Source: a virus
IMG/VR virus record: IMGVR_UViG_3300044732_000442
Span: 52,116-116,115 of that record
Direction: 5' to 3' (one strand)
Length of the DNA stretch: 64,000 bases
The notes below the pieces were generated by a model. It did not search any database. It saw nothing but the letters and a program-made list of their open reading frames with translations, and had not been told where the DNA came from. Shown piece by piece: positions 2 to 54,910 of the stretch (within the stretch, counting starts at the first letter, position 1; every line of letters begins with the position of its first letter). The translations under genes were made by a program, and so were the position numbers.

Positions 2-823
2 GGTGGCAAAAAAGTAGGAACTCTATTCAAGGGTAAAAAGACTAGTGTCCCATATGCTAATAGCATCAATGAAAGTGCTGAACTTAGTGAAGCACAACTA
101 GAAGAAGATGATGTTATTGTCGTTCCGGGACAAGGTCGCAAATCAAAAACTGGATTTGTTCCACATGGACAAAGTCGTATAGACCATGAAGTTGAGATGG
201 CACGTAGTGATTTATTCAGTGCCGCAAAGAATGCTCAACAAGTCTATTCAATGATTAAAGATGTTAGTGAAGATGAAGGTCTTGATGGTTGGGTACAAGA
301 AAAGATTATTAAAGCTAATGACTATCTAAACACAATACGTGAATACTTAGAAGGTAAACAAATTCAAGGTGTGAATGAAGGACCCGAGTTTGGTTCAAAG
401 TATGCAGAAAAATTAGCACAATATGTTTATAATGTTAGACCTAATCTTAATAGTGAAGATGATGTTTTAAACATAGGATATAAAGTTGCTGTACAAGATT
501 TAGCCAGTCAAACACGTGCTGTATCGTTGTTTAGCAGAGATCAAGATTTCCCTAGTGACTTTGTAAGTGCTTATAGATTCTTACAAAAAAGACGAGGTGT
601 AACAGAAAACAACCAAAGAGGTGATTCACTTGTTACTGACTCATTAAAAATAATGCGTGGTGCAGAAGTAAGTGATGCTGTAAGAGCACTAACGACCGTA
701 CTAGGAAATAGAGAATACAATAGCCGTCGTGGTTTTTACAATTTCTATATTAAACAAATGATTGATATGTATAGACAACAAGGTGTGAATGAAGGTTCTA
801 AGTCACCTAATAAGAAAGCGTAA
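2..823 (+). CDS. 5'-truncated modular virion-internal-type protein
   Basis: Frame is open from nt 2 (GGKKVGTLFKG...DHEVEMARSDL), upstream of the ORF-track start at 197. Modules are separated by INE/LSE/LEE/QGVNE/GVTE linkers. Confidence 0.6.
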   Translation, partial: GGKKVGTLFKGKKTSVPYANSINESAELSEAQLEEDDVIVVPGQGRKSKTGFVPHGQSRIDHEVEMARSDLFSAAKNAQQVYSMIKDVSEDEGLDGWVQEKIIKANDYLNTIREYLEGKQIQGVNEGPEFGSKYAEKLAQYVYNVRPNLNSEDDVLNIGYKVAVQDLASQTRAVSLFSRDQDFPSDFVSAYRFLQKRRGVTENNQRGDSLVTDSLKIMRGAEVSDAVRALTTVLGNREYNSRRGFYNFYIKQMIDMYRQQGVNEGSKSPNKKA

Positions 824-824
824 T

Positions 825-3626
825 ATGAGCAATATTCTTAAAGGTATAATAAACGAAACTAGTCCGCATAATTACGATAGTGATTGGGATTATCAGGATG
901 CTTTAGCACGTAGTGGCAAATCACGTTCTAGCTATCGTTCACAAGAAGATGATACGTCTGATGCTGATATTGCATATTCTAAAAAGATGTATCAATTGGG
1001 TCAACAACAGAAGGCTGCTAAAGAGAAAGCTCAACGTGATAATGACCATGATAGATTAGCAACTGGTACAAATGAAGATGATAGTAATCAAACTAGAATG
1101 AGAATGAATGATTATTACGATTTAGCTGAGGCTCTTCAGGAAAAGCTTAGACAAGCAATTAAGATGGGTAATAACGAACTTGTACATAAATTATCCAAAG
1201 AACGTGCTGAATTAGATGCACGTGTTAAAAAATATGGATTAATGCCTGAATCAGAACAATTAGATGAAATCTCTAATGAGAAATTGGCACAATACAAAAC
1301 AGCTGCCGCCGCCGACGCAGGCAAAGCTGATAAAGAGGGAGACTTTAAGCGTGGTGATAAACGTTTCAGTGGTATTGTTAAAGCAACTAAGAAACAATTT
1401 GCAAATGATACAAAGAAATCTGGTATAGGTCAAGGTATTTCAGAAGATAGATTTAACAGTAAACAAGAAGTTATTAACCATTTTGTTAAAAATGGTAAAA
1501 GTGCGGCAGCAGGTGCGGCAGCATGGGAACGTGGTTATAGAGGTTCAAATCCTAACAAACCAATAGAAATAAAAAAGCCACCTCAAAGAAGTTACCATGA
1601 TGATTTAGATGATAAACGTTATTCTAATACGTTTGAAAATTTAGGTGATCAACTAAAATCACAATCTCTAGAAGCATTACAACAAATCAAACAACAAATT
1701 GAACAAAAACGTGCCGACGAATTAGCTCAATGGGAACAAGATTTTAGAAATAATGTTGCTGGCAAAATGAGAAGCCAACCAATACGTTCACCGGAAGCAA
1801 CACCGGTTGCACAACCTGGTGAGAAGCATTCAGTATTAAAAGCTAGATTAGCACAACTCAATAATGCTATACAAAAACAAGAACTATTGGACAAGTTAAT
1901 TGATAAAATTGACCGTAAAGGTTTGTTGACTCCAGCAATGCAGAACGATGCTGATACTAGAATGCATGTTAAGTATGGTGCAAAAGATAACTATCAATCA
2001 TTGAATAAAAAGTTAGACAATTCTATTTCAATGTTACAGGATAGATTGTATATACGTAAAAAATCAGGTTTAAAAGAATCGCCTAAGAGAATTGATTATG
2101 ATAGTGATACATATGATAATACTAGAATGGGTAGAGAGTATGGCAAGGCTAATCTATTTGTAGATCCGGGGTCAAATGAATTTAAAAAAGAAATACATCC
2201 TGGAGATCCTGAAGGTGAACGTGGTAGACCAAGAAATCTAAAAGGTATTTCAAAAAGGTTACCTGCTGATGCGTTTGGTCGTACTAGCGGAGTTGTTCCT
2301 GATAGTGCAAGACCTAAATCAAAAGAAGATCCTTTTAAAGGAGTAGATGAAGCTGATATGAACCGTAGAGGGTTTTTAGGACAAGCAGGCAAGGCTGCAG
2401 GTGCTGGCGCATTGGCTGCCGCAGGCTTAGGTGGTGCTAGCAATGCTCAAGCATTTAAGGGAACACTTCCTGCTCCTCGTATATCTGAAGATGAGGCTGA
2501 AGCTCAAATTAAAGAATTAAGAAGTAAAGCATATAAAGAGTTAGCAAGTATGATGTGGAATGTATGGCCTAAAATACTAGACACAACATTTGGCGCAAAT
2601 ACTCCTCAAGATAAGCCAGCTACACCCGATGAAATTGGTAAAATGTTAGGCTACAGATTAGCTGAATATGCTGATGACTATAGACAAAAAGTTAGAGCAA
2701 TTAAAATAGCAGCCGGAGTAAGAGATCCTCAAAGTTTAAATAAAACAACTGCCGCAATTTATGTTAATGAACAAGAGATGGATGAGGGTTGGAGTCAAAA
2801 GTACAAGAGTAGTATCAACTGTAGTCATCCTAAAGGTTTTAGTCAAAAAGCTCATTGTGCAGGCAAGAAGAAACACAATGAAAGTATTGACAATGTTATG
2901 GAAATGACATGTCCTGATTGTGGTATGTGTGAAACTCACGTAGACCATGCTAAGTTAGATGAAGCTTGTTGGAAAGGTTATCACAAAGAAGGTAACAAAA
3001 AAATGTTTGGCAAAACATATCCTAACTGTGTAAAGAATACTAACGAAGAACAACTAGATGAAAAATGCTGGGACACACATAAACAAGTTGGAATGAAAAA
3101 CAAAGGTGGACGTATGGTCCCTAACTGTGTGCCTAAAGAAAGTGTAGAAGAACAACATTCACATAGTGAAAGTTGTCCGCATTGTGGTGGCGAGATGGTT
3201 AGTGAAGAACTAATGAATGAAAAGAAAGATGCTTGCTACTACAAAGTAAAGAGCCGTTATAAAGTATGGCCAAGTGCTTATGCATCTGGTGCGTTAGTTA
3301 AGTGCCGCAATAAAGGCGCAAGTAACTGGGGTACAGGCGGAAAGAAAAATGAAAGCTCTATACTAGAAGGTATTGAACAAGCAGACGAAAGTTTACATGA
3401 TTGGTTCAATAAAGAAAAATGGGTTCGCATGGATACTAAAGGAAAGATTAAAGGTCCGTGTGCAAGAGAACCAGGCGAAGGTAAACCAAAATGTTTGCCA
3501 CAAAGTAAAGCACATAGTCTAGGTAAAAAGGGTCGTGCTAGTGCCGCTCAACGTAAGCGTAGAGAAGATCCTAATCCAGAACGTAGTGGCAAAGCCATTA
3601 ATGTTGATACAAAAAAGAAAGATTAA
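825..3626 (+). CDS. Large modular polyprotein-like head/internal protein with small Cys/Lys-rich modules and an internal Tat-like signal
   Basis: Likely start ATG 825, just after the upstream stop. Repeated EQLDE/MDE/LDE/MNE/VDE linkers flank short modules (CWKGY..PNCVK, CWDTH..PNCVP, DACYYKVK..WPSAYASG, WFNKEKWV..KPKCLP). Internal MNRRGFLG...AQA. Confidence 0.6.
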   Translation: MSNILKGIINETSPHNYDSDWDYQDALARSGKSRSSYRSQEDDTSDADIAYSKKMYQLGQQQKAAKEKAQRDNDHDRLATGTNEDDSNQTRMRMNDYYDLAEALQEKLRQAIKMGNNELVHKLSKERAELDARVKKYGLMPESEQLDEISNEKLAQYKTAAAADAGKADKEGDFKRGDKRFSGIVKATKKQFANDTKKSGIGQGISEDRFNSKQEVINHFVKNGKSAAAGAAAWERGYRGSNPNKPIEIKKPPQRSYHDDLDDKRYSNTFENLGDQLKSQSLEALQQIKQQIEQKRADELAQWEQDFRNNVAGKMRSQPIRSPEATPVAQPGEKHSVLKARLAQLNNAIQKQELLDKLIDKIDRKGLLTPAMQNDADTRMHVKYGAKDNYQSLNKKLDNSISMLQDRLYIRKKSGLKESPKRIDYDSDTYDNTRMGREYGKANLFVDPGSNEFKKEIHPGDPEGERGRPRNLKGISKRLPADAFGRTSGVVPDSARPKSKEDPFKGVDEADMNRRGFLGQAGKAAGAGALAAAGLGGASNAQAFKGTLPAPRISEDEAEAQIKELRSKAYKELASMMWNVWPKILDTTFGANTPQDKPATPDEIGKMLGYRLAEYADDYRQKVRAIKIAAGVRDPQSLNKTTAAIYVNEQEMDEGWSQKYKSSINCSHPKGFSQKAHCAGKKKHNESIDNVMEMTCPDCGMCETHVDHAKLDEACWKGYHKEGNKKMFGKTYPNCVKNTNEEQLDEKCWDTHKQVGMKNKGGRMVPNCVPKESVEEQHSHSESCPHCGGEMVSEELMNEKKDACYYKVKSRYKVWPSAYASGALVKCRNKGASNWGTGGKKNESSILEGIEQADESLHDWFNKEKWVRMDTKGKIKGPCAREPGEGKPKCLPQSKAHSLGKKGRASAAQRKRREDPNPERSGKAINVDTKKKD

Positions 3627-3635
3627 AGAGTAATT

Positions 3636-4076
3636 ATGTTGTCAGACAATCTAAAAGTATTACTAGCAAGCACACAAAGTTTTGCTATCAAAACACAAAA
3701 CTTTCATTGGAACGTAGAGGGAAGTAACTTTCCACAATATCACGAATTCTTTAATACATTGTACGAAGATGTAAGTGCTACGATTGATCCTATTGCTGAA
3801 TATATAAGAATACTAGGTCACTATACTCCTGGCAGTCTAACACGTTATGCTGAACTAAGTATCATACAAGACCAAATAAAGATTCCACGTGCTGAATTAA
3901 TGTTTGTTGAATCATTACAAGATTGTGAAACAATGCTTCAGTTAGTAACAGCAATGTTTGATGAGGCAGCTGGTGAGAATCAACATGGTATTGAAAACTA
4001 TATGGCTGAACTACAAGACTTGTATGGTAAGAAAGCATGGTTCATTCGTTCTATATTAAAAAGAGAACGTGAATGA
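3636..4076 (+). CDS. dps: Dps-family ferritin-like DNA-protection protein
   Basis: NFHWNVEG.NF.QYHEFF..LY and IDPIAEYIRILG motifs; 146 aa. Confidence 0.9.
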   Translation: MLSDNLKVLLASTQSFAIKTQNFHWNVEGSNFPQYHEFFNTLYEDVSATIDPIAEYIRILGHYTPGSLTRYAELSIIQDQIKIPRAELMFVESLQDCETMLQLVTAMFDEAAGENQHGIENYMAELQDLYGKKAWFIRSILKRERE

Positions 4077-4951
4077 GAGCAACAGAGTTTATTACCGAAC
4101 AAGCAAATCCTAAAGTAGATTTGACTCCAAATTATCCTAACTATCAAGTGTTAGTGGGTGAGTTTGTCGGTATGAAAAAAAACAGAGCAAGATTTTTAAT
4201 TGTAGCCTCTGAACTTAAACCAGGTGTGCGAGAGACTGATAAAATTTTTAGAGCTAGAACTACTAATACACCTATCAGTATTGAGATTGGTAGGGTAAAA
4301 AATCGTAATGTAGTAGATGAAGATTTATCACGTAGAGGCTTCTTAGGTGGTTTAGCTGGTATGGCTGCACTAGGTACTAGAGATACAAAACCTACTGTTA
4401 ATAAAGATACACCAACGGCACCACAAAAAGAACCTACTGTAACTACATTGAGTAACAATCCTCAAATTGAGAGTTTATTACATAAAGCCGCTGTAGCTGC
4501 CGGTATAGTTGGTATTGAATTAGCACAGTTTATGGCTCAAACTAAACATGAATCCTGGAATTTTAGTAGACTAAAAGAAAAGGGTGTAGGTCAAGGCTAT
4601 TTTGCTAAAAAGTATGACCGTCAATATGCACCACGTACTGCTAAGATATTGGGTAATAAGCAGATAGGTGATGGAGAAAAATATCATGGTCGTGGATTTA
4701 TTCAATTGACCGGTCGTGATAACTATCGTATGGCTAGTCAAAGTTTAGGTATTGATTTATTAAATGATCCTGATTTAGCAGAACGACCAGATGTTGCAGC
4801 CAAGATTGCTATATGGTATTGGAAGACACGTGTTAAACCCTATATAAATAACTTCAACGATACGAAGGCAGTAACACAAAAGATTAATCCAGCACTACGT
4901 GGATTACAAGATAGACATGCAAAGTTTATTGACTACAAAAACATATTATAA
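4073..4951 (+). CDS. GH19 (chitinase/lysozyme-like) muramidase with N-terminal module and internal twin-arginine motif
   Basis: AQFMAQTKHES, YHGRGFIQLTGRDNY and VTQKIN..GLQDR motifs; N-terminus MRATEFITE; VVDE-DLSRRGFLGGLAGMAALG. Confidence 0.85.
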   Translation: MRATEFITEQANPKVDLTPNYPNYQVLVGEFVGMKKNRARFLIVASELKPGVRETDKIFRARTTNTPISIEIGRVKNRNVVDEDLSRRGFLGGLAGMAALGTRDTKPTVNKDTPTAPQKEPTVTTLSNNPQIESLLHKAAVAAGIVGIELAQFMAQTKHESWNFSRLKEKGVGQGYFAKKYDRQYAPRTAKILGNKQIGDGEKYHGRGFIQLTGRDNYRMASQSLGIDLLNDPDLAERPDVAAKIAIWYWKTRVKPYINNFNDTKAVTQKINPALRGLQDRHAKFIDYKNIL

Positions 4952-4959
4952 AGAGAACC

Positions 4960-5397
4960 ATGAAGAAAATAATAACAATCATACTATTAGCAATATCTAC
5001 TATTGCATTTGCACAAAAACAAAAGCCAATGAATGTATATGATTTTACAATCACTAGAGTTATTGATGGAGATACAGTAGCATTTCAAGCAACATTTTTA
5101 CCCCCACCATTAAAGCAAGAATTAAGTATTCGTGTGTTTGGTGTTGACACACCTGAAAAGGGTCATAGAGCAATGTGCCCCAGTGAAGCACAGCGTGGCG
5201 AGGCTGCTTCGGCCTTCACAAAAAATGCCATAGCTAAAGCACAGAAACGTCAAGTAGCTATAGCTGATTGGGATAAGTATGGTGGACGTGTATTGGGTGA
5301 TATATTACTTGATGGACAAAGTTTAAGAATGATGTTAATACAGAATGGATTTGCAAGAGAATACTACGGAGAAGCTAAAACTTCTTGGTGCAACTAA
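4960..5397 (+). CDS. Secreted thermonuclease (SNase family)
   Basis: Signal peptide MKKIITIILLAISTIAFA; RVIDGDT, IRVFGVDTPE and DKYGGRVLG motifs. Confidence 0.9.
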   Translation: MKKIITIILLAISTIAFAQKQKPMNVYDFTITRVIDGDTVAFQATFLPPPLKQELSIRVFGVDTPEKGHRAMCPSEAQRGEAASAFTKNAIAKAQKRQVAIADWDKYGGRVLGDILLDGQSLRMMLIQNGFAREYYGEAKTSWCN

Positions 5398-5468: not shown

Positions 5469-5494
5469 CCTTATAAGTGAGCATAAATACTAAT

Positions 5495-6070
5495 ATGAGA
5501 GCAATAGAACTATACGAATCGGCCGCAAGTGAACTAGCTAAGAAACTTCCTAGCTTAGAGAAACACGACTATAATACCATTGATAAGCTAATGAAAAACA
5601 TAGCAAAGAAACATCGTATAACCGGTGATGCATTGCATGATTTGTTTGTTAGAAAATATCATAAGACTCCAGACAGTTGGATTAAAGATAAACTAGATGA
5701 GAGTGAACAAGAAGATTTGAATAACAATCCTATTGTACAGAAGTTTCTTGCTTGGACAAGTAAGAAGTTGAATTTAGAAAATACTCCAAAGATAGAGTTT
5801 AGTTATGATAGTGATGAAGCACAAGAAGGTCATCATACTGGTAGACACAATCCAGAGACGGGTGAAGTATGGGTTTATTGTGCTAATAGAAATCTAGTAG
5901 ATATATTACGTACTGTGTTCCATGAATTAACTCATGTACGCCAGGGTGAATTAAATATGATTAAGCCGGGTGATAGTTATCCAGGTAGTCCAATAGAAGC
6001 AGAAGCGGATGTAATGGCTGGCAAATATATTAAAATATTTGGTAAAGCACATCCAGAAATATTTCAATAA
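5495..6070 (+). CDS. Zn-metallopeptidase-like protein (HExxH)
   Basis: VFHELTHVRQ..E.EAD. Start ATG 5495 (MRAIELYE) lies 5 nt after TAAATA. Confidence 0.65.
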   Translation: MRAIELYESAASELAKKLPSLEKHDYNTIDKLMKNIAKKHRITGDALHDLFVRKYHKTPDSWIKDKLDESEQEDLNNNPIVQKFLAWTSKKLNLENTPKIEFSYDSDEAQEGHHTGRHNPETGEVWVYCANRNLVDILRTVFHELTHVRQGELNMIKPGDSYPGSPIEAEADVMAGKYIKIFGKAHPEIFQ

Positions 6071-6082
6071 AGAGAATAAAAT

Positions 6083-7087
6083 ATGTCAATATCAATAACA
6101 GGTGGAATATCATTTAGTGGTGGAGTAGGAATAACTGCCGCACCACCATCAACTCCAACAGCAGGATGGTTTGCAGGTGGGTCTGACGATTCTGGTGTTA
6201 CTTCAACAGTACAACGAATAACATATGCAACTGATACCGCTACTGCAAGTGTTCGTGGACCATTAAACGGCACCAGATATCAAAATGCCGGTACCGGTAA
6301 TTTAAATTATGGATGGTTTGCTGGTTCACGCATTACAGTTGCTATTAGCTCAGTATCAAGGATCACCTATGCAACAGATACTGATACAGCAAGTAATCGC
6401 GGCCCACTAAGTTATAGTGCTTATAGTATTACTGCGAACGGCACAGATACATATGGATGGTTTGCAGGTGGTAAGGATCAATCACCTAGTGATTATTCTA
6501 CAGTATCCAGAATAACATACGCAACTGATACTGGTACTGCAAGTACAAGGGGATCATTATCCGGTTGTTCATATCAAGGTGCAGCATCTACTGACAGCAC
6601 TACATATGGCTGGATTGCAGTAGGATTTGATAACCCTAGTACTATCGGATACCGTAGTATCGTAACTAGGATAACATATGCCACTGATACAGTAACATCA
6701 ACTATTAGAGGTCCATTAAGTTCAACTAGATCATCAATGGCCGGTACTGGTAGTACAAGTTATGGTTGGTTTGCCGGTGGATTTTTCGTCGGCCCGCCGA
6801 CATGGGAGGGAATTTATTATTCTAGGGTAGATCGTATTGATTATGCAAATGATACCGCTACAGCAAGTGTTCGTGGTCCGTTAACTAGAACTAATCAAGG
6901 TCAAGCAGCATCAACCGATGGAACAACATATGGTTGGTTTGGTGGAGGAAATAATTTTTCAACTCCTGCCGGTCCTTTTTCTTCCGTAGACAGAATAACA
7001 TATGCTACTGATACTGTTACTGCGACTGCACGTGGCCCGTTAAGTTCCGGTAGGAGGGTTTTTGCTGCCTCATCCGGTATACAATAA
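6083..7087 (+). CDS. Kelch-like beta-propeller repeat protein (6 repeats), putative virion fibre/decoration
   Basis: Six GWFAGG...RITYATDT.TAS.RGPL repeats; shared MSISITGGI N-terminus. Confidence 0.65.
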   Translation: MSISITGGISFSGGVGITAAPPSTPTAGWFAGGSDDSGVTSTVQRITYATDTATASVRGPLNGTRYQNAGTGNLNYGWFAGSRITVAISSVSRITYATDTDTASNRGPLSYSAYSITANGTDTYGWFAGGKDQSPSDYSTVSRITYATDTGTASTRGSLSGCSYQGAASTDSTTYGWIAVGFDNPSTIGYRSIVTRITYATDTVTSTIRGPLSSTRSSMAGTGSTSYGWFAGGFFVGPPTWEGIYYSRVDRIDYANDTATASVRGPLTRTNQGQAASTDGTTYGWFGGGNNFSTPAGPFSSVDRITYATDTVTATARGPLSSGRRVFAASSGIQ

Positions 7088-7102
7088 TATAAAGGTTAAA
7101 AA

Positions 7103-7600
7103 ATGTCAATAACAATAACAGGTGGAATAACATTAAATGGTGGTGGTTGGACTATTGAGGCACCACCGGCGGGTATTAGGGCTATATTTGGTTATGGAAA
7201 TGATGGATCAGTAACATCAATAACTAATTTAGTATCAACTACTGGTGTTGTTGCCACAGATACCGCAGGGGTAGGGACTGCTAGATATGGATTGGCAGCC
7301 GCAGGATATGGCACAGATAAAGCTATATTTGGATATGGATATGCCTCTCCAAGCGCACGTTCAATCACCAATCTAGTATCAAATACAGGTGTTGTTGCTA
7401 CTGATACAGCAGGTGTAGGTACTGCTAGATATCAAATAGCCGCCGCAGTGTATGGCACAGATAAGGCTATATTTGGTTATGGATACGGGGTTTCTTGGAC
7501 ATCAATAACTAACCTAGTATCAAACACCGGTGTAGTAGCAACAGATACAACAGGTGTTGGCACTGCTAGAGCTGAAATTGCGGCAGCAGCCTACGGTTAA
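7103..7600 (+). CDS. Repeat protein, 3 x ~47-aa units
   Basis: AIFGYG-x-ITNLVSNTGVVATDTTGVGTAR-xx-LAAAGYGTD repeats. Confidence 0.7.
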   Translation: MSITITGGITLNGGGWTIEAPPAGIRAIFGYGNDGSVTSITNLVSTTGVVATDTAGVGTARYGLAAAGYGTDKAIFGYGYASPSARSITNLVSNTGVVATDTAGVGTARYQIAAAVYGTDKAIFGYGYGVSWTSITNLVSNTGVVATDTTGVGTARAEIAAAAYG

Positions 7601-7622
7601 TTATACAATAAAGGTTTTATAA

Positions 7623-8282
7623 ATGTCAATAACAATAACAGGTGGAATAACATTAAATAATGGTGGTTGGACTATAGTTGCACCACCCGCAGGTAATAAA
7701 GCTATCTTTGGATACGGGACTGATGGTATTTCTCTATTAGCAATGACCAATCTAGTATCAAACACTGGTGTAGTAGCCAATGATACTACAGGTGTTGGTA
7801 CTGCTAGATTATACTTAGCAGCCGCCGGCTATGGAACAGATAAAGCTATTTTTGGATATGGGGTTACATACTCTCCAGGTTTCACTCCTTACTCAATTAC
7901 CAATCTTGTATCAAATACAGGTGTTGTTGCTACTGATACAACAGGTGTTGGAACTGCTAGAGGAACATTAGCAGCCGCAACCTATGGCACTGATAAAGCT
8001 ATATTTGGATACGGGTATAACGGAAGTACTAATGTATCAACTACTAATCTAGTATCAAACACAGGTGTTGTTGCTAGTAATACTACAGGTGTTGGAACTA
8101 TTAGAGGAACATTAGCAGCCTCAGGTTATAGCACTGATAAAGCTATATTTGGATATGGATTTGCCAATAGTGGCATAGTGTCAATGACTAACCTAGTATC
8201 AAACACAGGTGTTGTTGCTACTGATACTACAGGTGTTGGAACTGCTAGAGAGGAATTAGCGGCCGCAAGTTACGGATCTTAA
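7623..8282 (+). CDS. Repeat protein, 4 x ~47-aa units
   Basis: Same repeat unit as 7103..7600. Confidence 0.7.
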   Translation: MSITITGGITLNNGGWTIVAPPAGNKAIFGYGTDGISLLAMTNLVSNTGVVANDTTGVGTARLYLAAAGYGTDKAIFGYGVTYSPGFTPYSITNLVSNTGVVATDTTGVGTARGTLAAATYGTDKAIFGYGYNGSTNVSTTNLVSNTGVVASNTTGVGTIRGTLAASGYSTDKAIFGYGFANSGIVSMTNLVSNTGVVATDTTGVGTAREELAAASYGS

Positions 8283-8325
8283 CATTATGATTAACATAAA
8301 TACATTTATTATAAAGGAAAATAAA

Positions 8326-8541
8326 ATGATAGACTTAGAAAACATGCCTGCTCCAACAGCAGAGGAAATTGCACAAGCAAGAGAAAATGCATTTAATGCA
8401 GAACATCCAGCATCATGGACATGGGATGAGGCAGCAACTACATATGTTGCTCCAGTTGCTATTCCAAGTGATGGTTATCCATACTTATGGGATGAAGCTA
8501 CAACTAATTGGGTACCATTTCCAGATTATCCAAGAGAATAA
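8326..8541 (+). CDS. Small Trp-rich protein, possible fibre assembly chaperone
   Basis: AAGGA SD before ATG 8326; duplicated W.WDEA.T motif; TAAATA at 8297. Confidence 0.5.
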   Translation: MIDLENMPAPTAEEIAQARENAFNAEHPASWTWDEAATTYVAPVAIPSDGYPYLWDEATTNWVPFPDYPRE

Positions 8542-8544
8542 AGA

Positions 8545-9468
8545 ATGTCGGTAACATTTAGTGGTGGCGGTGTAACAATATCAGGCGGAGGATGGACTCT
8601 TAGTCCTCCACCAGGTGGTAGTAAGGCTATCTTTGGATATGGTTATAACGGGACAAATTTGTCAATTACTAATTTAGTATCAAACACAGGTGTTGTTGCC
8701 AATGATACTACAGGTGTCGGTACTGCTAGATTTGGATTGGCGGCCGCAGGATATGGCACAGATAAAGCTATATTTGGATATGGATTCGGAGCTAGTAGAA
8801 CGTCAATAACTAACCTAGTATCAAATACAGGTGTAGTTGCTACTGATACTTCAGGAGTTGGAACTGTTAGAAGTGATTTAGGAGCCGCAGGATATGGTAC
8901 TGATAAAGCTATATTTGGTTATGGATATACAGGTGGTGTCTCTTTTATATCAATAACCAATCTAGTATCAAATACGGGTGTGGTTTCCGGTGATACTGCA
9001 GGTGTTGGTACTGCTAGAGGTTATCTTGCAGCCGCAGGTTATGGCACTGACAAAGCTATTTTTGGATATGGTAACGGTAGCGGATTGCAATCAATAACCA
9101 ATCTAGTATCAAACACGGGGGTTGTTGGCAACAATGTTACAGGTGTAGGTACTGCTAGAGATAGTCTTGCAGCCGCTAGTTATGGTACTGATAAAGCTAT
9201 ATTTGGTTATGGATCTGGACCAACTGCAATAACTAACTTAGTATCAAACACAGGTGTAGTTGCTACTGATACAACAGGTGTTGGAACTGCTAGATATTAT
9301 CTTGCGGCCGCAGGATATGGGGTAGGTACAGCTATATTTGGATACGGTGAGAATGGTAGTATTAATGTATCAATGACCAACTTAGTATCAAACACCGGTG
9401 TAGTTGCTACAGATACTACAGGTGTCGGTACTGCTAGACAATTATTAGCGGCCGCAAGTTACGGTTAA
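8545..9468 (+). CDS. Repeat protein, 6 x ~47-aa units
   Basis: Same repeat unit. Confidence 0.7.
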   Translation: MSVTFSGGGVTISGGGWTLSPPPGGSKAIFGYGYNGTNLSITNLVSNTGVVANDTTGVGTARFGLAAAGYGTDKAIFGYGFGASRTSITNLVSNTGVVATDTSGVGTVRSDLGAAGYGTDKAIFGYGYTGGVSFISITNLVSNTGVVSGDTAGVGTARGYLAAAGYGTDKAIFGYGNGSGLQSITNLVSNTGVVGNNVTGVGTARDSLAAASYGTDKAIFGYGSGPTAITNLVSNTGVVATDTTGVGTARYYLAAAGYGVGTAIFGYGENGSINVSMTNLVSNTGVVATDTTGVGTARQLLAAASYG

Positions 9469-9490
9469 TTATACAAAGAAAGAATAAAGA

Positions 9491-10417
9491 ATGTCGGTAA
9501 CATTAAACGGTGGTGTAACATTTGGCGGAGGGTTAACTCTTACTGCCGGACCAGCCGGTAATAAAGCTATATTTGGATACGGGTACATTTCAGCAGTAGG
9601 AGAGACTGCAATAACCAATCTAGTAAGTAATACAGGCGTTGTAGCAACTGATACAGCTGGAGTAGGTACTACCAGAACTAACCTAGCGGCGGCTGGGTAT
9701 GGTACTGATAAAGCCTTATTTGGTTATGGAGAAGGAAATGGTACTTATTTATCAATAACTAACAAAGTAAGTAATACAGGTGTGGTGGCTAATGATACTG
9801 CAGGTGTTGGTACTGGTAGAACTGGAATTGCAGCCGCAGGTTACGGGACTGATAAAGCTATATTTGGATATGGCTACGCCTCTGGCGGCAGAACAGCAAT
9901 AACTAACAAAGTATCAAACACCGGAGTAGTTGCTACTGATACGACAGGTGTAGGTACTATTAGAAATGGACTAGCGGCCGCAGGCTATGGAACCGATAAA
10001 GCTATATTTGGATATGGGCAAAATTATCCCACTTATTATTCGTTAACCAATCTAGTAAGTAATACAGGTGTAGTAGCAACTGATACAACTGGTGTTGGAA
10101 CTATTAGAAGTGAGCTAGCGGCAGCAGGTTATGGTACGGATAAGGCTATATTTGGATATGGATATGCTTCCGACAATTCAAGTGTATCAATGACCAACCT
10201 AGTATCAAACACAGGAGTAGTAGCAACAGATACGACTGGTGTTGGTACTGCTAGGTTTTATCTAGCTGCCGCTGTTTACGGCACTGATAAAGCTATATTT
10301 GGATATGGAGTAACAACAGCAGTAACTAATTTAGTATCAAATACAGGTGTGGTTGCTACAAATACTACTGGTGTTGGTACAGCAAGATATTCACTTGCGG
10401 CGGCCGCCTACGGTTAA
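9491..10417 (+). CDS. Repeat protein, 6 x ~47-aa units
   Basis: Same repeat unit. Confidence 0.7.
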   Translation: MSVTLNGGVTFGGGLTLTAGPAGNKAIFGYGYISAVGETAITNLVSNTGVVATDTAGVGTTRTNLAAAGYGTDKALFGYGEGNGTYLSITNKVSNTGVVANDTAGVGTGRTGIAAAGYGTDKAIFGYGYASGGRTAITNKVSNTGVVATDTTGVGTIRNGLAAAGYGTDKAIFGYGQNYPTYYSLTNLVSNTGVVATDTTGVGTIRSELAAAGYGTDKAIFGYGYASDNSSVSMTNLVSNTGVVATDTTGVGTARFYLAAAVYGTDKAIFGYGVTTAVTNLVSNTGVVATNTTGVGTARYSLAAAAYG

Positions 10418-25547: not shown

Positions 25548-26917
25548 TGTTTCAATAATAATGTAGACAATACATCTTGTCTATTAGCACTGATATCACC
25601 CTCACCTGGTGCAATGATAACATTCCATTTCTTAATGTTATTCTTTTGTGGAGTAGCCATCATCTCATTATAATCAATGATACTATCACGTTTTAAATTA
25701 TATTGATTTGCCAATCTGTCTTTTAATTCTTCTAATGCGGCTGCGTCTTTTGGTTGCCAAGCACCATCAGCGGTCTTATCTAACTTACCATCCTTATCCT
25801 TCTTCAATAAGTCATAGAATAACTTACTTGGAACAATACGACTATTCTTAGTTACATCTAGTTGTGGATCTTGTTGTTTAACTTGTTTCTCTTGACTAGT
25901 ACTTGCACCCTCACTCCAATTAACAATAAAGTTACTTGGCTTTTGACCTAAGGCTGCATCCGCTATTTTTGTATAAGCATAGAACTTAACATCAGGATGT
26001 GATGCCGCTAATTTGAATGCCAAATCCATATATTCTGGACTAAAGAAATCACCAGCATCATGCCAACGAATAGTTAGATTGTAACCACCCTTTTGTGCTA
26101 GCTTTTCTTCTTTTGTGATTTCTGCACTTAGTTGATTAAAGAATCCATCTGGATCATTCAATAAGAAAGTAAGAATTCTTCCGTCACTTAACCAAGGACC
26201 TTCAAACTGAACCTTACCACCCTTCATAGCGAAACAATCTACTTTACATGATCCAGCACCCGGACATGTATTAACTACTATGAGTTCGTTTGTACCTTCA
26301 TCTAATGCTATACCGACTAGTGCGGCAAAACCAATGTTATAGAATTGTTCTAGTTCACCATTAGAATGTTTCATCTTCTCATTTTGTTTAAGAAGTTTCT
26401 TTGGGCGAACACCTAATGCTGTTTTGATTTGGTCTGTATCGTAGCGTTTACCTTCTTCATTGTAGTATTTGACTACACTTGAGCGATGGATGTAAGGAAG
26501 TTTATATTTGTCTGTTTTACCCTTTTCACGATTACGAATTCTATCTAAGTAATCATCTAGTTCTTGGCCTTTTAGTTCACGTGTTTGTGCTGGTAGTTTT
26601 GTTGCTTCTGCTACAGGTTGTTGTTTAGTAGCAGGTTCCATTGTAGCACGAATCTTGCCGATAGCTTGACCTATACCAGCGGCTCTTTTTTCAGCCTTTT
26701 TAAATTGATTTTTAGGATCTTGTTTAAGTCTATCTCTAGCATCTGTATTAGATTTTCTAACATAGCTTGCTAATGTTTGAGGAGACAATTCATCTAATTG
26801 TTCATCGGGCAAATCATCAGATTGAGCCAGAAACTGATCCATGCTCATAACTTTGATGCCACCTACAGCACCCGGTAATTTGGGTGTTGCACCCTCAAAT
26901 AGTTCTACAAAATTCAT
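25544..26917 (-). CDS. Modular protein with a Gp88-like (atypical Cys-cluster) domain
   Basis: TCPGAGSCKVDCFA, IRWHDAGDFFS and FYAYTK; N-terminus MNFVELFE; EQLDE and VAE linkers. Confidence 0.6.
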   Translation of the reverse strand: MNFVELFEGATPKLPGAVGGIKVMSMDQFLAQSDDLPDEQLDELSPQTLASYVRKSNTDARDRLKQDPKNQFKKAEKRAAGIGQAIGKIRATMEPATKQQPVAEATKLPAQTRELKGQELDDYLDRIRNREKGKTDKYKLPYIHRSSVVKYYNEEGKRYDTDQIKTALGVRPKKLLKQNEKMKHSNGELEQFYNIGFAALVGIALDEGTNELIVVNTCPGAGSCKVDCFAMKGGKVQFEGPWLSDGRILTFLLNDPDGFFNQLSAEITKEEKLAQKGGYNLTIRWHDAGDFFSPEYMDLAFKLAASHPDVKFYAYTKIADAALGQKPSNFIVNWSEGASTSQEKQVKQQDPQLDVTKNSRIVPSKLFYDLLKKDKDGKLDKTADGAWQPKDAAALEELKDRLANQYNLKRDSIIDYNEMMATPQKNNIKKWNVIIAPGEGDISANRQDVLSTLLLKH

Positions 26918-27810
26918 TTCTTAAGATTCCTAATATATTGTTCAGCTAGCATTACTAATTCTTCCATTTGCTCTACACTCTCGCAATTCCATCTACGTAG
27001 TGCTAATGCTTTAGGGGTAGGTTTACCATTAGGCTTTTTCATAGGACCTTTGTTACCACTCATACGAGCACAAAAACTCTTGCGGCGTTTGGCAGCTTTT
27101 GATCCAGGCTTTAATTTACTAGGTTTGGTAGTAACTGCTGTTTGCAATTTGCTGCCTGGATTTTCCCTACGATATGCTTTCACTGCTTTACGGCTCATGC
27201 CGGACGTTTTGTCTTTCTTATTGACTTTGTTCCAGTCTTCATCGATACCTTGCTGAGGTGTTGTACCATAATGGCTCATATTATCATAGGTTGACCTACC
27301 TAAATGTGTGTTGATTAAAAACATCTGAGCATCCTTAAGACTCTTATGATTCATTTGTTTTATAAAATTACCATCTTTTCTTCTAGTTGTAAAGGGAGGT
27401 TGACCTGTCCTACTATATATATGTCCTATTTTTTGACCATCGTATATAAATTCATATTCTTTCCATGGATCTTTTGCTTCATTCATACCCTGTTGACCTA
27501 GTGGAATATTAGCAATATCATTTACAGTAATATTAACTAAATTAGTTGTTCCATTTGCTATACGGGCAAAGTGTCCCTGATTGTGTAAATTCATCATTGC
27601 GTAATAAAGATAGTTTGGGTCAATAACATCAGTTTTTACAACTTTAATGCCAATCCTTGATGGATCAAATTCTTTGAGAGGCTTACCCACAGTCTTATCA
27701 CTACCCTTACGCACTAACCAAAAGTCAGCGTCTGGCATATTAGTAGCAATTTTTGCTATGTCTTTTAGTCTGGTTCCTGAACTCTCTGATATAATTTCGG
27801 TAAATCTCAT
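26914..27810 (-). CDS. Modular protein: HsdS-TRD-like module plus a basic RRKSFCARM module
   Basis: MRFTEIISE; LKDIAKI...DPNYLYY...NGTTNLVNIT..DIANIPL; QQGMNE and QQGIDE linkers; RRKSFCARMSG...ALRRWNC. Confidence 0.55.
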   Translation of the reverse strand: MRFTEIISESSGTRLKDIAKIATNMPDADFWLVRKGSDKTVGKPLKEFDPSRIGIKVVKTDVIDPNYLYYAMMNLHNQGHFARIANGTTNLVNITVNDIANIPLGQQGMNEAKDPWKEYEFIYDGQKIGHIYSRTGQPPFTTRRKDGNFIKQMNHKSLKDAQMFLINTHLGRSTYDNMSHYGTTPQQGIDEDWNKVNKKDKTSGMSRKAVKAYRRENPGSKLQTAVTTKPSKLKPGSKAAKRRKSFCARMSGNKGPMKKPNGKPTPKALALRRWNCESVEQMEELVMLAEQYIRNLKK

Positions 27811-31805: not shown

Positions 31806-32029
31806 ACTTTACTAAACCGGACAAAACTATTAAAACAATTCGTCCAGGCGATCCGGACTTTATGATTTACAATGGAAACTTTATGGCTGCACGTGCTGGA
31901 TTTGAGATTAGCCAACAATGCCCGAACAGTTACAAAAAAATAATACAAGAATGTATCAGTCATGGGTGGTTAAAGCCTGTGGCATATATAAAAGAAGTTG
32001 ATTATACTTGGGAAAAATTAGGAGAATAA
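31802..32029 (+). CDS. Hypothetical protein
   Basis: Coupled ORF. Confidence 0.55.
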   Translation: MNFTKPDKTIKTIRPGDPDFMIYNGNFMAARAGFEISQQCPNSYKKIIQECISHGWLKPVAYIKEVDYTWEKLGE

Positions 32030-32030
32030 A

Positions 32031-32228
32031 ATGACAAGAGATTACAAAAACCTTCAATATATCTTAAACAAGAATCCACAAGAATTGTTTGAGTGGTGGA
32101 ACTCATTGAATGATGAGGATCAAGCTTATGCTTTGGAAATCATTACAGAATATCGTAAAATCCTAGAAGAACCAGTGGTAGAGGACTTGTCTTTAGCATA
32201 TGATTTGCTAAAACAATTTATGTTATAA
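32031..32228 (+). CDS. Hypothetical protein
   Basis: AGGAG SD. Confidence 0.6.
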   Translation: MTRDYKNLQYILNKNPQELFEWWNSLNDEDQAYALEIITEYRKILEEPVVEDLSLAYDLLKQFML

Positions 32229-32467
32229 TGGCAAGTTTAGCTGAGTATTTTAATGCAAACCGATACATGGGTAAATACAGTATAGGTGACCGTGTTATTG
32301 GTAAATGGAATAAGATTCCATTTGTCGGTACTGTGGGAAATGACACATTAATTAATGAGATTGAAGGACCAAGAATTAGTGTGTGTTTGGATTTACCTAT
32401 TAAATATAAAGATAATATACATCGTGTTATAATTGTCAAACACAAGGATGTGAAATTATTTAAATAA
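32228..32467 (+). CDS. Hypothetical SH3-like small protein
   Basis: Coupled ORF; IGDRVIGKW. Confidence 0.55.
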   Translation: MASLAEYFNANRYMGKYSIGDRVIGKWNKIPFVGTVGNDTLINEIEGPRISVCLDLPIKYKDNIHRVIIVKHKDVKLFK

Positions 32468-32476
32468 AGGATAAAC

Positions 32477-32692
32477 ATGGATAATGAAAAACTAACAAAA
32501 TTAGCAGAACAATGTATTACTGACGATCAATTTGCGGTAGGTGCATTTGCAAAGATATTAATAGATGAATGTATATTAGCATTAGATAGTACGGAGAAAC
32601 CGCATGTACATACTACATTTGACCAATCACAACATGAAAGTAGTATTGCAGAAGCAAAGAAAGCAATTAAGAAGCATTTTGGATTTGAATGA
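32477..32692 (+). CDS. Short paralog-family protein (FA.LI..EC...HFG)
   Basis: Similar to 38030, 38247, 39766 and 41312. Confidence 0.6.
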   Translation: MDNEKLTKLAEQCITDDQFAVGAFAKILIDECILALDSTEKPHVHTTFDQSQHESSIAEAKKAIKKHFGFE

Positions 32693-41668: not shown

Positions 41669-42922
41669 ATGGTAACAATAGTTAAACACGAATGGCATCA
41701 ACATGATAGACAATATGCTATTGAAATTGATGAAGCATTACTCAGTGAAATCTATCCTGACAAGGAAGAAGATGAGATTAAAGTAATACTAGATGGTATT
41801 ATTGATGGTACATATGATTATGAAGATGTTATCAATGATGCTTATGAGAATGATGTAGAAATTGAATGGGAGTTTCAGTATGATGATTGTTGGACTGACC
41901 GCAAAGGTGGTTACGATGTTACCTACGAACTAGGCGATGAATCTAGTTGGCATAGTGAACCCGAGCCTCCACCACATACTCATAAATGTACTAAATGTAA
42001 ATGGACAGGTCAAAGTTATGATACTGAATGGTTATGGCCTGAAGATGACGAGACTGGTGAGAAAGAAGCCAAAAAAGTTTGTCCAATGTGTGATAGTGAC
42101 ACTGAATTAACAGAAGCCGGCGTTAAAGAAGAACAAGAACGTAAAGAGCGTATGGCACGTTGGGATAAAGAAAATATCATTAATGAAGAAGATGAAGAAC
42201 TAGTTGATGAAAATGAACTAGAAGAAGCATTGGAAGAACTTAAGGCAGAGTTTGAGACACTTATTGCAGAACCAGATTTATTGCCTAACTATCCAGCTGG
42301 CGAATATACAATACGTATCTGGGGTCGTACACGTGAGATTGGCGTACACAAGATTAAGAAAGCTCAATACGAGTATTGGAGTGATGAGGACCACGAAGAT
42401 GATTTGAGTGATGCTCTTAATGAGAGTTATGACTACGATGAGAATGAAACTCCCAAAGCGGCACGATTTGATTTGCCATACTATGAGTATCAAGGTAAAC
42501 ATTCATTCTGGGGCTTTGACCAAGATGATACTCACATGACTATCACCAATAGTGAGGGTGAAGAAATCTATGAAGGTGATTTAGAATCATTTATTGCTGA
42601 AGCACACGGAGAAGAAGATAGTCGTTGGGAAGCTACAGAAGAATTAGAAGAACTATATCCTGAATACTTAGGTAAAGGTTATTGGCTGATGTGGACACAA
42701 GGTGGTAAAGGATCATGTATTCAAACTACCATTGAGATTGCTGAAGGTGAGGAGTTTGATCCTCGCAAACTTAAAGTATTGAACTGGGATGTTCAAGGTA
42801 CAAGTGTTGTCACCCGATTAGTATATGATGGTGAAGAACTTGATGATGAAGGAATGGACAGTGAGCATGATAACTGGCGAGGTCAATGGGCACAGTTTGA
42901 TGTACACCATAATACAAAATGA
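41669..42922 (+). CDS. Highly acidic protein with a Zn ribbon
   Basis: CTKC...CPMC; very Asp/Glu-rich. Confidence 0.65.
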   Translation: MVTIVKHEWHQHDRQYAIEIDEALLSEIYPDKEEDEIKVILDGIIDGTYDYEDVINDAYENDVEIEWEFQYDDCWTDRKGGYDVTYELGDESSWHSEPEPPPHTHKCTKCKWTGQSYDTEWLWPEDDETGEKEAKKVCPMCDSDTELTEAGVKEEQERKERMARWDKENIINEEDEELVDENELEEALEELKAEFETLIAEPDLLPNYPAGEYTIRIWGRTREIGVHKIKKAQYEYWSDEDHEDDLSDALNESYDYDENETPKAARFDLPYYEYQGKHSFWGFDQDDTHMTITNSEGEEIYEGDLESFIAEAHGEEDSRWEATEELEELYPEYLGKGYWLMWTQGGKGSCIQTTIEIAEGEEFDPRKLKVLNWDVQGTSVVTRLVYDGEELDDEGMDSEHDNWRGQWAQFDVHHNTK

Positions 42923-43131
42923 ACGCATATACCTTAGTAGGACAATCCTATGTATTTGAAGATGGCAATAAGATTGAAATAATACAGGTAAAAAAGACTG
43001 ATGAGGATCGTGGTGATTATTTAGTTACATATCACGTTACTCACGGACCCAGTATACCTCAAAAACTAGTTTTACCTGTAAAAGAATTTCTTAGTTATTA
43101 TAGTCACTTATTTGATGTAGATATAGACTAA
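42919..43131 (+). CDS. Hypothetical protein
   Basis: Coupled ORF. Confidence 0.55.
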   Translation: MNAYTLVGQSYVFEDGNKIEIIQVKKTDEDRGDYLVTYHVTHGPSIPQKLVLPVKEFLSYYSHLFDVDID

Positions 43132-43138
43132 ATATTAG

Positions 43139-48628: not shown

Positions 48629-48691
48629 GTAAGTGCTGAATGAGTCAGGCTTACTAATTATACATCTTGCTTATTAAAGGAGAAAAATATG
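48629..48691 (+). promoter_or_regulatory. ROSE-like RNA thermometer in the dnaK 5' UTR
   Basis: 5' hairpin 48629-48654, then TCTTGCTT-ATTA-AAGGAGA (UUGCU paired with the SD, bulged G). Confidence 0.6.
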
Positions 48692-54316: not shown

Positions 54317-54910
54317 ATGAGCTTAGTCCCAATGGTATTAGAACAAACAAGTAAAGGCGAACGTAGTTATGACATTTATAGTCGTTTACTACGTGACCGT
54401 GTTATTTTACTTGAAGGTGAGGTACATGACCAAATGGCAAATCTAATCGTTGCACAACTACTATATTTGGAAAGTGAAAATTCAGATAAGGACATCAGTC
54501 TATATGTCAATAGCCCGGGCGGATCAGTTACTGCTGGTATGGCAATATATGATTGTATGCAGTTTATCAGACCTGACGTACAAACTATTGTTATGGGTCA
54601 AGCTTGTTCAATGGGTAGTTTGTTAGGTCAAGCTGGTGCAAAAGGTAAACGAATGATTCTTCCTAACGCACGACATATGATTCATCAACCAAGTGGTGGA
54701 GCACGTGGTCAGGCCACTGATATGGAAATTCAAGTTAAAGAGATTTTGGCTATGAAAAAGTCTCTAACACAAATCTATGTTGACCACAATAGTGCTGGAA
54801 AGTCGTTTGAGGAACTTGCAAAAGACATGGAACGTGACTTTTTTATGAGTGCTAACGAGGCCGTAGCGTATGGCCTAGCTGATAGTGTGTTGCAAAAACG
54901 CAACAGTTAA
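54317..54910 (+). CDS. clpP: Clp protease proteolytic subunit
   Basis: [29 protein letters not shown] and ERDFFM motifs. Confidence 0.97.

What the first reader, a model, noticed from the sequence alone, without database searches (positions are those of the whole stretch)
2343..4951. Cryptic twin-arginine (Tat) signal peptides placed right behind putative prohead-protease sites
Seen: in two neighbouring proteins a Tat motif sits internally, just after a V-D-E linker. In 825..3626, GVDE-ADMNRRGFLGQAGKAAGAGALAAAGLGGASNAQA (nt ~2343-2453, with an AQA peptidase site) precedes a ~105-aa module. In 4073..4951, VVDE-DLSRRGFLGGLAGMAALG (SRRGFL at 4328-4345) precedes the GH19 muramidase and has no adjacent Met, so an internal start cannot explain it. 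Known: T4-type gp21 protease cuts after (I/L/V)-x-E during head maturation, and Tat exports folded proteins with an N-terminal S/T-R-R-x-F-L. Inference: the signals are masked during synthesis so the proteins can be packaged, unmasked by capsid maturation, and after injection the folded cargo is exported to the periplasm by the new host's Tat system (wall remodelling or superinfection exclusion). This would be a protease-gated, two-host targeting mechanism.
Basis: partly seen in the sequence, partly recalled or inferred. Interest (0 to 1): 0.85.

Follow-up and report, generated by a model that had tools for sequence, protein, structure and literature searches.

The report
Internal Tat export signals in phage cargo polyproteins
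Two neighbouring proteins of an uncultured marine T4-like jumbo phage carry conserved twin-arginine export signals in mid-chain, each just after a V-x-E motif that fits the head-protease site, so they may be virion-packaged cargo sent on to the next host's periplasm, though nothing has been tested at the bench.

Summary
The 116-kb contig holds only two RRxF[LIVM] motifs. Both are internal, both follow V-D-E, and both lead into Gly/Ala-rich hydrophobic stretches.

They are conserved:
- More than 100 GH19 homologues keep the motif after (V/I/L)-x-E.
- The 933-aa protein's cassette, with its A-Q-A peptidase site, recurs at positions 353-822 behind different upstream modules.
- At least nine cargo types follow such signals.

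- N-terminal leaders (MRATEFITE, MSNILKGIINE) resemble the T4 capsid-targeting sequence.
- Two complete ~352-kb relatives encode a gp21-type protease.
- A second, non-Tat signal class is preceded by (V/I/L)-x-E in 21 of 21 cases.
- Some relatives carry two export signals in tandem, which only makes sense if the chain is cut.

Evidence against:
- E. coli FecR shows that an internal Tat signal after a folded N-domain works without unmasking.
- In six lineages only the 9-residue leader precedes the signal, so nothing masks it.
- About 10% of homologues have Asp at P1.
- No virion data exist.

Verdict: real and conserved. The mechanism is plausible (about 0.4) but unproven. First-stage notes on this same genome (search of earlier findings) proposed the same reading and are not independent evidence.

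The parts
825..3626 (+). 933-aa modular 'polyprotein'. The true start is the ATG at 825, not the one at 789.
   Evidence: Homologues start with the same 11-residue leader. [LIVM]-x-E occurs 21 times against 10.7 expected from shuffles. No Pfam family at E<=0.01. The C-terminal Cys-rich modules are shared with T4-like cyanophages.
825..857 (+). N-terminal leader MSNILKGIINE, ending in I-N-E
   Evidence: Shared by most of 120 otherwise variable 500-1400-aa homologues.
2343..2351 (+). V-D-E junction, a putative glutamyl-protease site, before signal 1
   Evidence: Upstream sequences differ among homologues, but V/I/L-x-E-A-D-M is kept.
2352..2453 (+). Tat-type signal peptide 1: twin arginine at 2364-2369, Gly/Ala h-region, A-Q-A site
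   Evidence: TIGR01409 17.4 bits, above its cut-off. Conserved in 32 non-identical contexts.
2454..2771 (+). 106-aa helical cargo module that ends in V-N-E
   Evidence: In homologues the module ends at Y-(V/I/L)-N-E, then Q-E-(I/M)-D-E, after which different modules follow. No known family or fold.
2772..3626 (+). C-terminal string of small Cys-rich and basic modules
   Evidence: phrog_727 and others. Weak DUF5872 and zinc-ribbon hits.
4073..4951 (+). 292-aa protein: leader, small beta-barrel module, Tat-type signal, linker, GH19 muramidase
   Evidence: PF00182 at residues 149-256. In the AlphaFold2 model, residues 12-78 and 125-292 are folded and 83-122 are disordered.
4073..4099 (+). Leader MRATEFITE, ending in I-T-E
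   Evidence: Resembles the T4 capsid-targeting sequence MKTYQEFIAE. The same leader type is on other ORFs of this contig and of relatives, with synonymous codon variation.
4313..4321 (+). V-D-E junction before signal 2
   Evidence: V80 and E83 are at least 90% conserved and D84 is invariant in 40 homologues.
4322..4375 (+). Tat-type signal 2 (S-R-R-G-F-L at 4328-4345). This phage has no A-x-A site here; many homologues have A-Q-A-K.
   Evidence: R87, R88, G89, F90 and L91 are invariant. Pfam TAT_signal 18.8 bits.
4445..4948 (+). GH19 catalytic domain
5495..6070 (+). Leader-bearing 191-aa protein whose C-terminal half is a small zincin-like HExxH metallopeptidase module. Its start is probably the ATG at 5495, not the GTG at 5477.
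   Evidence: H143, E144, H147 and E168 are invariant. Relatives give weak DUF6782 and Peptidase_M78 hits. The AlphaFold2 model has pLDDT 94.5. The best fold matches are Wss1/SPRTN, minigluzincins and IrrE, at weak E-values of 0.06-0.7. Relatives fuse this module upstream of signal-LysM-GH19.
2..823 (+). Upstream modular protein, cut by the window edge. Its stop codon lies 1 nt before the start of the 933-aa gene.
   Evidence: [LIVM]-x-E occurs 9 times against 4.1 expected. Sequence.
26914..27810 (-). Another ORF with the same leader type (M-R-F-T-E-I-I-S-E)

Best explanation
The two proteins are modular cargo proteins of a T4-like marine jumbo phage. A short N-terminal leader, analogous to the T4 capsid-targeting sequence, takes the whole chain into the prohead core. 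The gp21-type prohead protease then cuts after (V/I/L)-x-E at the flexible junctions between modules. Two of these cuts leave a Tat-type signal peptide at a new N-terminus. After ejection into the next cell, the host Tat system exports the GH19 muramidase and the 106-aa module to the periplasm. Where an A-x-A site is present, signal peptidase then releases them.

Shown here: the motifs, their conservation, the junction rule, the leaders, and a gp21-type protease in complete relatives.

Inferred: packaging, cleavage at these sites, Tat dependence, and export in the new host rather than the producer.
For: 1. Only two RRxF[LIVM] motifs exist in the contig, and both are internal and follow V-D-E.
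2. They are conserved in more than 100 GH19 homologues and about 30 polyprotein homologues, at variable positions behind unrelated upstream modules. Conservation begins at P3.
3. Nine distinct cargo clusters follow such signals.
4. The leaders share E-F-I-x-E with the T4 capsid-targeting sequence, whose residues 8 and 10 direct gp21 cleavage. They occur on many unrelated cargo proteins, vary at synonymous sites, and 7 of them cluster in a 13-kb stretch of a complete relative.
5. In short forms the leader's final x-x-E stands in exactly the register of the internal V-x-E, so both forms predict the same mature N-terminus, D-(L/I)-S-R-R.
6. A non-homologous, non-Tat signal class (G-W-K followed by an Ala/Gly-rich stretch) is preceded by (V/I/L)-x-E in 21 of 21 contexts.
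7. Four relatives carry two export signals of the same orientation in one chain, which calls for cleavage between them.
8. Module boundaries coincide with [LIVM]-x-E, and the motif is enriched 2-fold.
9. Peptidase_S77 is present in two complete relatives of 352 and 355 kb, and in two further syntenic relatives.
10. The signal lies in a disordered, accessible 40-residue stretch.
11. A second, signal-less GH19 could act as the true endolysin.
12. The neighbouring nuclease uses a plain N-terminal Sec signal without a leader.
Against: - There are no virion proteomics, and no cultured relative carries the leader-Tat arrangement.
- This contig itself lacks the head genes.
- FecR shows that unmasking is not needed for an internal Tat signal.
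- Six lineages have the signal right after the 9-residue leader, so it is exposed in the producer cell.
- About 10% of GH19 homologues have Asp at P1 and a few have T or K at P3. In T4, Asp at P1 blocks cleavage.
- The benefit of a periplasmic muramidase early in infection is unclear.
- Both Tat HMM scores are marginal.
- The many supporting contexts are related by descent.
Confidence: 0.4

Rival explanations
1. FecR-like 'class V' Tat substrates. The internal signal works as it stands in the producer cell. The N-terminal modules stay in the cytoplasm and the C-terminal domain is moved across the membrane by Tat. The GH19 protein would then be an exported endolysin, either tethered to the membrane (this phage's version has no A-x-A site) or released by signal peptidase, and comparable in logic to signal-anchored endolysins.
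For: E. coli FecR uses an internal twin arginine (R79, R80) after a folded N-terminal cytoplasmic domain. Here the twin arginine is at residues 87-88, after a folded 67-residue module. Short forms have an exposed N-terminal signal. P1 is Asp in some homologues.
Against: This reading does not explain the conserved leader on proteins that lack any signal. It does not explain the (V/I/L)-x-E rule shared by two unrelated signal classes. It does not explain tandem signals in one chain. It gives no reason to fuse up to 800 residues of unrelated modules upstream. A second, signal-less GH19 exists.
Confidence: 0.27
2. Polyvalent-protein style processing by a dedicated zincin-like metallopeptidase module rather than by the prohead protease. 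The HExxH module (5495-6070, fused to the GH19 chain in relatives) would cut the junctions, either in the cytoplasm or after delivery.
For: The HExxH module has invariant H-E-x-x-H and Glu residues. Relatives give weak metallopeptidase family hits. It has a zincin-like fold. It carries the leader and is found in 1842 cluster representatives at variable positions. It is fused upstream of signal-GH19 in three loci. Polyvalent proteins are proposed to be processed by such modules.
Against: The junction motif (hydrophobic-x-Glu) matches the published gp21-type specificity. Family and fold matches for the module are weak (E 0.0002-0.7). Many signal-bearing chains have no such module.
Confidence: 0.13
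3. These are not Tat signals. The hydrophobic stretches are ordinary Sec signal-anchors or membrane helices that happen to carry R-R.
For: HMM scores are marginal. Relatives use a non-R-R signal in the same place.
Against: S/T/N-R-R-G-F-L-(G/K) is invariant over wide divergence. The h-regions are short and Gly/Ala-rich. Precomputed Pfam TAT_signal hits are recorded on two relatives.
Confidence: 0.08
4. Site 1 is simply the N-terminus of a nested gene translated from the internal ATG at 2358.
For: The ATG lies directly before N-R-R, with AAAGGAG upstream.
Against: The 14-nt spacing is long. The upstream residues that encode the AAAGGAG are not conserved in homologues. The Met is replaced by I, V or L in other cassettes. 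Site 2 has no start codon.
Confidence: 0.04

Closest known systems
T4 internal proteins (IPI, IPII, IPIII, Alt) with a capsid-targeting sequence removed by the gp21 prohead protease
   Same: A short N-terminal leader ending in hydrophobic-x-Glu and sharing E-F-I-x-E. Diverse cargo behind one leader. A T4-like lineage with Peptidase_S77.
   Different: The cargo here is long strings of modules with many internal junction motifs, and some modules carry export signals. In T4 the internal proteins act in the cytoplasm. Nothing here has been shown in virions.
Polyvalent proteins of phages and conjugative elements (Iyer, Burroughs, Aravind and colleagues, 2017; PMC5512222)
   Same: Multi-domain effector chains thought to travel with the DNA. 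They include lysozyme and zincin metallopeptidase modules and are processed into separate units.
   Different: That paper does not mention signal peptides, Tat or the periplasm (0 occurrences). The junction rule and the leader are specific to this group.
FecR, a 'class V' Tat substrate
   Same: An internal twin-arginine signal about 80 residues in, after a folded N-terminal domain, with a folded C-terminal domain destined for the periplasm.
   Different: The FecR signal is an uncleaved anchor in a cellular regulator. Many of the signals here have A-x-A peptidase sites, follow up to 800 residues of modules, and can occur twice in one chain.
Bipartite transit peptides of chloroplast lumen proteins (own knowledge, not checked here)
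   Same: A first targeting peptide is removed by a protease, which exposes a Tat signal for a second membrane.
   Different: That system is eukaryotic and works within one cell. Here the two steps would take place in two successive host cells.
Signal-bearing endolysins (SAR endolysins such as P1 Lyz; Sec-exported Lys44) (own knowledge, not checked here)
   Same: A muramidase behind a weakly hydrophobic, Gly/Ala-rich export segment.
   Different: Those signals are N-terminal and Sec-dependent. Here the signal is Tat-type and lies behind a leader plus a folded module.

Membership tests
Tat (twin-arginine) signal peptide | S/T-R-R-x-F-L-K consensus followed by a weakly hydrophobic h-region | tested here: met
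   S-R-R-G-F-L-G and N-R-R-G-F-L-G, each with a Gly/Ala h-region. The motif is invariant in homologues.
Tat (twin-arginine) signal peptide | Recognition by curated Tat HMMs above their cut-offs | tested here: inconclusive
   TIGR01409 scores 17.4 against a cut-off of 16.7 on site 1. PF10518 scores 18.8 against 22.7 on site 2 and 7.9 on site 1.
Tat (twin-arginine) signal peptide | N-terminal position | tested here: not met
   The twin arginines are at residues 514-515 of 933 and 87-88 of 292. Internal Tat signals are known, however (class IV and V).
Tat (twin-arginine) signal peptide | tatC- and R-R-dependent export | not testable with these tools
   This needs a reporter assay. No phage-encoded TatA or TatC was found in complete relatives.
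T4-type capsid-targeted internal protein | N-terminal targeting peptide of about 10 residues ending in L/I-x-E | tested here: met
   The two leaders end in I-T-E and I-N-E. Compare the T4 sequence and the residue roles.
T4-type capsid-targeted internal protein | gp21-type prohead protease (Peptidase_S77) in the genome | tested here: inconclusive
   Absent from this 34%-complete contig. Present in complete relatives G011 and G012, and in syntenic G001 and G002.
T4-type capsid-targeted internal protein | Presence in the mature head in cleaved form | not testable with these tools
   The phage is uncultured and there are no proteomics.
Polyvalent protein (Iyer et al. 2017) | Many unrelated effector domains in one chain, shuffled among relatives | tested here: met
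Polyvalent protein (Iyer et al. 2017) | Zincin-like metallopeptidase processing module | tested here: inconclusive
   The HExxH module has weak DUF6782 and M78 hits and a zincin-like fold. In this phage it is a separate gene. No match to the named MPTase family was obtained.
GH19 endolysin | GH19 catalytic domain | tested here: met
   PF00182, E 1.4e-16. phrog_181 endolysin, E 2e-39.
GH19 endolysin | Role in host lysis (lysis cassette context) | tested here: inconclusive
   The neighbours are a Dps-like protein, a nuclease and the HExxH protein; no holin or spanin was recognised. A second GH19 without a signal exists elsewhere on the contig.

The most novel reading that the evidence does not exclude
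A phage packages strings of effector modules into its head. It uses the head-maturation protease to turn some of them into Tat (or Sec) precursors, so that after ejection they are sent on by the new host's own export machinery to its periplasm. That would be a protease-gated targeting route spanning two successive host cells.
Probability: 0.3. Interest if true: 0.85.

Novelty: new variant of a known kind. Interest (0 to 1): 0.68.

Why it matters
If true, it would show that virion-delivered phage proteins are not confined to the cytoplasm of the newly infected cell. They could be addressed to the periplasm through host export systems, which opens a new class of early phage effectors: wall remodelling, superinfection exclusion, or envelope-directed counter-defence.

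It would also give a simple sequence rule (leader, hydrophobic-x-Glu junctions, signal cassettes) for reading hundreds of unannotated giant proteins in marine jumbo phages.

Even under the rival reading, these would be the first phage examples of FecR-like internal Tat signals, and of a Tat-dependent muramidase.

Tried and rejected
- **Nucleotide search against deposited phages.** No match. The phage is uncultured. Its nearest DNA polymerases are those of Atu_ph07, Phosso and RaK2-like jumbo phages at about 45% identity.
- **DNA-level explanation of the leaders and junctions** (recombination scars or shared initiation regions). Rejected: the leaders vary at synonymous sites and have unrelated upstream DNA. 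The shared 10 nt at the two junctions are simply the commonest codons for V-D-E.
- **N-module as an inhibitory pro-domain docked on GH19.** Not supported: the two domains are joined by a 40-residue disordered stretch.
- **Function of the N-module and of the 106-aa cargo.** No family or fold clue.
- **Late-promoter scan (TATAAATA).** Uninformative: 5 hits in 116 kb.
- **Phage-encoded TatA or TatC.** None in complete relatives.
- **Sequence search of the HExxH protein against solved structures.** Nothing useful.
- **Literature.** No paper in the library links prohead proteases with Tat signals in phages. None of the titles or abstracts listed for the twin-arginine + endolysin search describes a Tat-dependent endolysin; the papers themselves were not opened.


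Full report
**What the window is.** The window is the last 64 kb of a 116,115-bp IMG/VR virus contig judged 34% complete. G+C is about 37%. Its family-B DNA polymerase is closest to those of Atu_ph07, Phosso and RaK2-like jumbo phages, at 43-48% identity. Many genes are syntenic, at 40-65% identity, with larger uncultured contigs. It has no nucleotide-level relative among deposited phages.

A six-frame scan of the whole contig finds only two RRxF[LIVM] motifs in ORFs of 60 aa or more. These are the two reported. Both are internal, both follow V-D-E-x-D or V-D-E-D, and both lead into Gly/Ala-rich uncharged stretches.

- Site 2 has no possible start codon nearby.
- Site 1 has an in-frame ATG just before N-R-R, with AAAGGAG 14 nt upstream, so a nested start cannot be formally excluded there.
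- Curated Tat models give marginal support. TIGR01409 scores 17.4 bits (cut-off 16.7) on site 1. Pfam TAT_signal scores 18.8 bits (cut-off 22.7) on site 2.

**Conservation.** The GH19 protein has more than 100 homologues at 52-95% identity that keep the same arrangement. A 75-residue N-module is followed by (V/I/L)-x-E-D-(L/I)-S-R-R-G-F-(L/A)-G-G. In most of them an A-Q-A-K type peptidase site follows. In a 40-sequence alignment R87, R88, G89, F90, L91 and D84 are invariant, and V80 and E83 are at least 90% conserved.

The cassette of the 933-aa protein, with its N-A-Q-A then F-K-G site, recurs at positions 353-822 in homologues. Their upstream sequences are unrelated, and conservation begins exactly at the hydrophobic P3 residue.

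Across the collected proteins and loci:
- There are 116 non-identical Tat-like contexts. Of these, 103 have [LIVM]-x-E with the Glu 3-5 residues before the twin arginine.
- At least nine unrelated cargo clusters follow such signals.
- An unbiased DNA-pattern scan of IMG/VR for D-x-x-R-R-G-F-L-G-G left the upstream residues free. It returned about 26 real hits, and 23 had Glu directly before the Asp.

These counts are inflated by shared descent and are not independent events.

**Leaders.** The GH19 protein starts with MRATEFITE and the 933-aa protein with MSNILKGIINE; its true start is at 825. The first leader type is found on:
- three or four ORFs of this contig;
- nine ORFs of a complete relative, seven of them in one 13-kb cluster;
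- many of the 150 best representatives of the HExxH module family.

The leaders vary at synonymous sites and have unrelated upstream DNA, so selection acts on the peptide.

The T4 capsid-targeting sequence is MKTYQEFIAE. In T4, residues 4 and 7 matter for targeting and residues 8 and 10 for cleavage by gp21, which cuts after L/I-x-E. The leader here shares E-F-I-x-E in the same register. This resemblance is a lead, not a proof.

**Protease.** This contig has no Peptidase_S77, but it also lacks the head genes. Two relatives judged 100% complete (352,012 and 354,680 bp) carry the same leader-Tat-GH19 gene. Each encodes one gp21-type Peptidase_S77. Two further syntenic relatives do as well.

**Evidence that the junctions are cut.**
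1. Module boundaries, defined by where homology breaks among relatives, coincide with [LIVM]-x-E. Examples are Y-(V/I/L)-N-E then Q-E-(I/M)-D-E after the 106-aa cargo, and (I/L)-x-E then Q before the N-module, whatever lies upstream.
2. The motif is enriched 2-fold: 21 observed against 10.7 +/- 2.9 from shuffles in the 933-aa protein.
3. Relatives that lack the twin arginine use a different signal, G-W-K-(D/E) followed by an Ala/Gly-rich stretch with A-x-A. All 21 non-identical examples are preceded by (V/I/L)-x-E. Two unrelated signal types therefore share only this upstream motif.
4. Four relatives have a Tat cassette and, about 190 residues later, a second signal of the same orientation in one chain. 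As export signals, both can only work if the chain is cut between them.
5. In short forms the leader's own x-x-E is in the same register as the internal V-x-E, so every form predicts the same new N-terminus, D-(L/I)-S-R-R.
6. AlphaFold2 places the signal in a 40-residue disordered, accessible stretch between two folded domains.

- A 2026 review lists 'class V' Tat substrates with an internal signal after a folded cytoplasmic domain, typified by FecR. FecR inserts through Tat using R79 and R80. Masking and unmasking are therefore not required in principle, and the GH19 protein (twin arginine at 87-88) has the same layout.
- Six lineages have the signal only nine residues from the N-terminus, so there it is exposed in the producer cell.
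- About 10% of GH19 homologues have Asp at P1. In T4, an Asp at the matching position of the targeting sequence blocks processing.
- This phage's GH19 signal has no A-x-A site.
- No proteomic or expression data exist, and the use of an early periplasmic muramidase is unclear.

**A second candidate protease.** The neighbouring gene (5495-6070) carries the leader and a C-terminal HExxH module.
- It has invariant His, Glu, His and Glu residues.
- Relatives give weak hits to putative metallopeptidase families.
- The model is confident, and its best, weak fold matches are minimal zincins: Wss1/SPRTN, minigluzincins and IrrE.
- The module occurs in 1842 cluster representatives at variable positions, and three loci fuse it upstream of signal-LysM-GH19.

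This fits the polyvalent-protein concept, in which a zincin module processes the chain. That paper never mentions export signals.

**Other context.**
- A second, 207-aa GH19 without a signal lies among large structural genes and could be the true endolysin.
- The adjacent nuclease has a plain N-terminal Sec-type signal and no leader, so the phage does use ordinary signals.
- Complete relatives encode no TatA or TatC, so any Tat export would depend on the host.
- The phage DnaK is 65-69% identical to gammaproteobacterial DnaK found in deposited records, which hints at a Gram-negative host.

**Verdict.** The main rival (about 0.27) is a FecR-like internal Tat signal that works uncut in the producer cell. 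A dedicated metallopeptidase as the processing enzyme (about 0.13) is a variant. All the parts are known; the combination is not described in the literature I could search. Earlier first-stage notes on this genome state the same idea and are not independent evidence.

Noticed in passing
window 46398-47603, 48689-50587, 54317-54910 (and contig 42882-43679, outside the window): From their N-terminal sequences, the phage appears to encode ClpX, DnaK, ClpP and a DnaJ-like protein. The DnaK is 65-69% identical to gammaproteobacterial DnaK. This is a full chaperone and protease set in a jumbo phage.
   Followed up: partly
window 6083-10417: A run of paralogous repeat proteins with about 47-52-aa repeats and conserved frameworks (K-A-I-F-G-Y-G or G-W-F-G-G-G). 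More copies lie elsewhere on the contig.
   Followed up: no
window 4960-5397: A staphylococcal-nuclease-like protein with an ordinary N-terminal Sec-type signal and no leader. It contrasts with the leader-bearing neighbours.
   Followed up: partly
window 3636-4076: A Dps/ferritin-like protein (PF00210, E 9e-17) sits between the two cargo genes. Its stop codon overlaps the GH19 start.
   Followed up: no
window 737-751: A third S-R-R-G-F in the upstream modular ORF is followed by Y-N-F-Y-I-K-Q rather than a hydrophobic stretch. It is not a signal.
   Followed up: yes
contig 32004-32627 (outside the window; locus L002): A second GH19 protein of 207 aa without leader or signal, between 1029-aa and 850-aa ORFs. 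It is conserved in relatives G001 and G002.
   Followed up: partly
L067:2347-4521 (Synechococcus phage S-SCSM2R gene 117) and L038:3950-4999 (S-RIM2): Cultured T4-like cyanophages carry modular 'hypothetical' proteins built from the same small modules. In S-SCSM2R the gene lies between the small and large terminase genes; in S-RIM2 it follows the small terminase gene and precedes a virion structural protein. They lack the leader and the Tat cassette.
   Followed up: partly
relatives of the HExxH module (alignment A2): One member fuses the HExxH module to a Tad3 (Thoeris inhibitor) domain. Others fuse it to NT5C, DUF6321 or GH19. Anti-defence cargo would fit early delivery.
   Followed up: no
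window 5477 versus 5495: The longest ORF starts at the GTG at 5477, but homologues and the leader pattern point to the ATG at 5495.
   Followed up: yes
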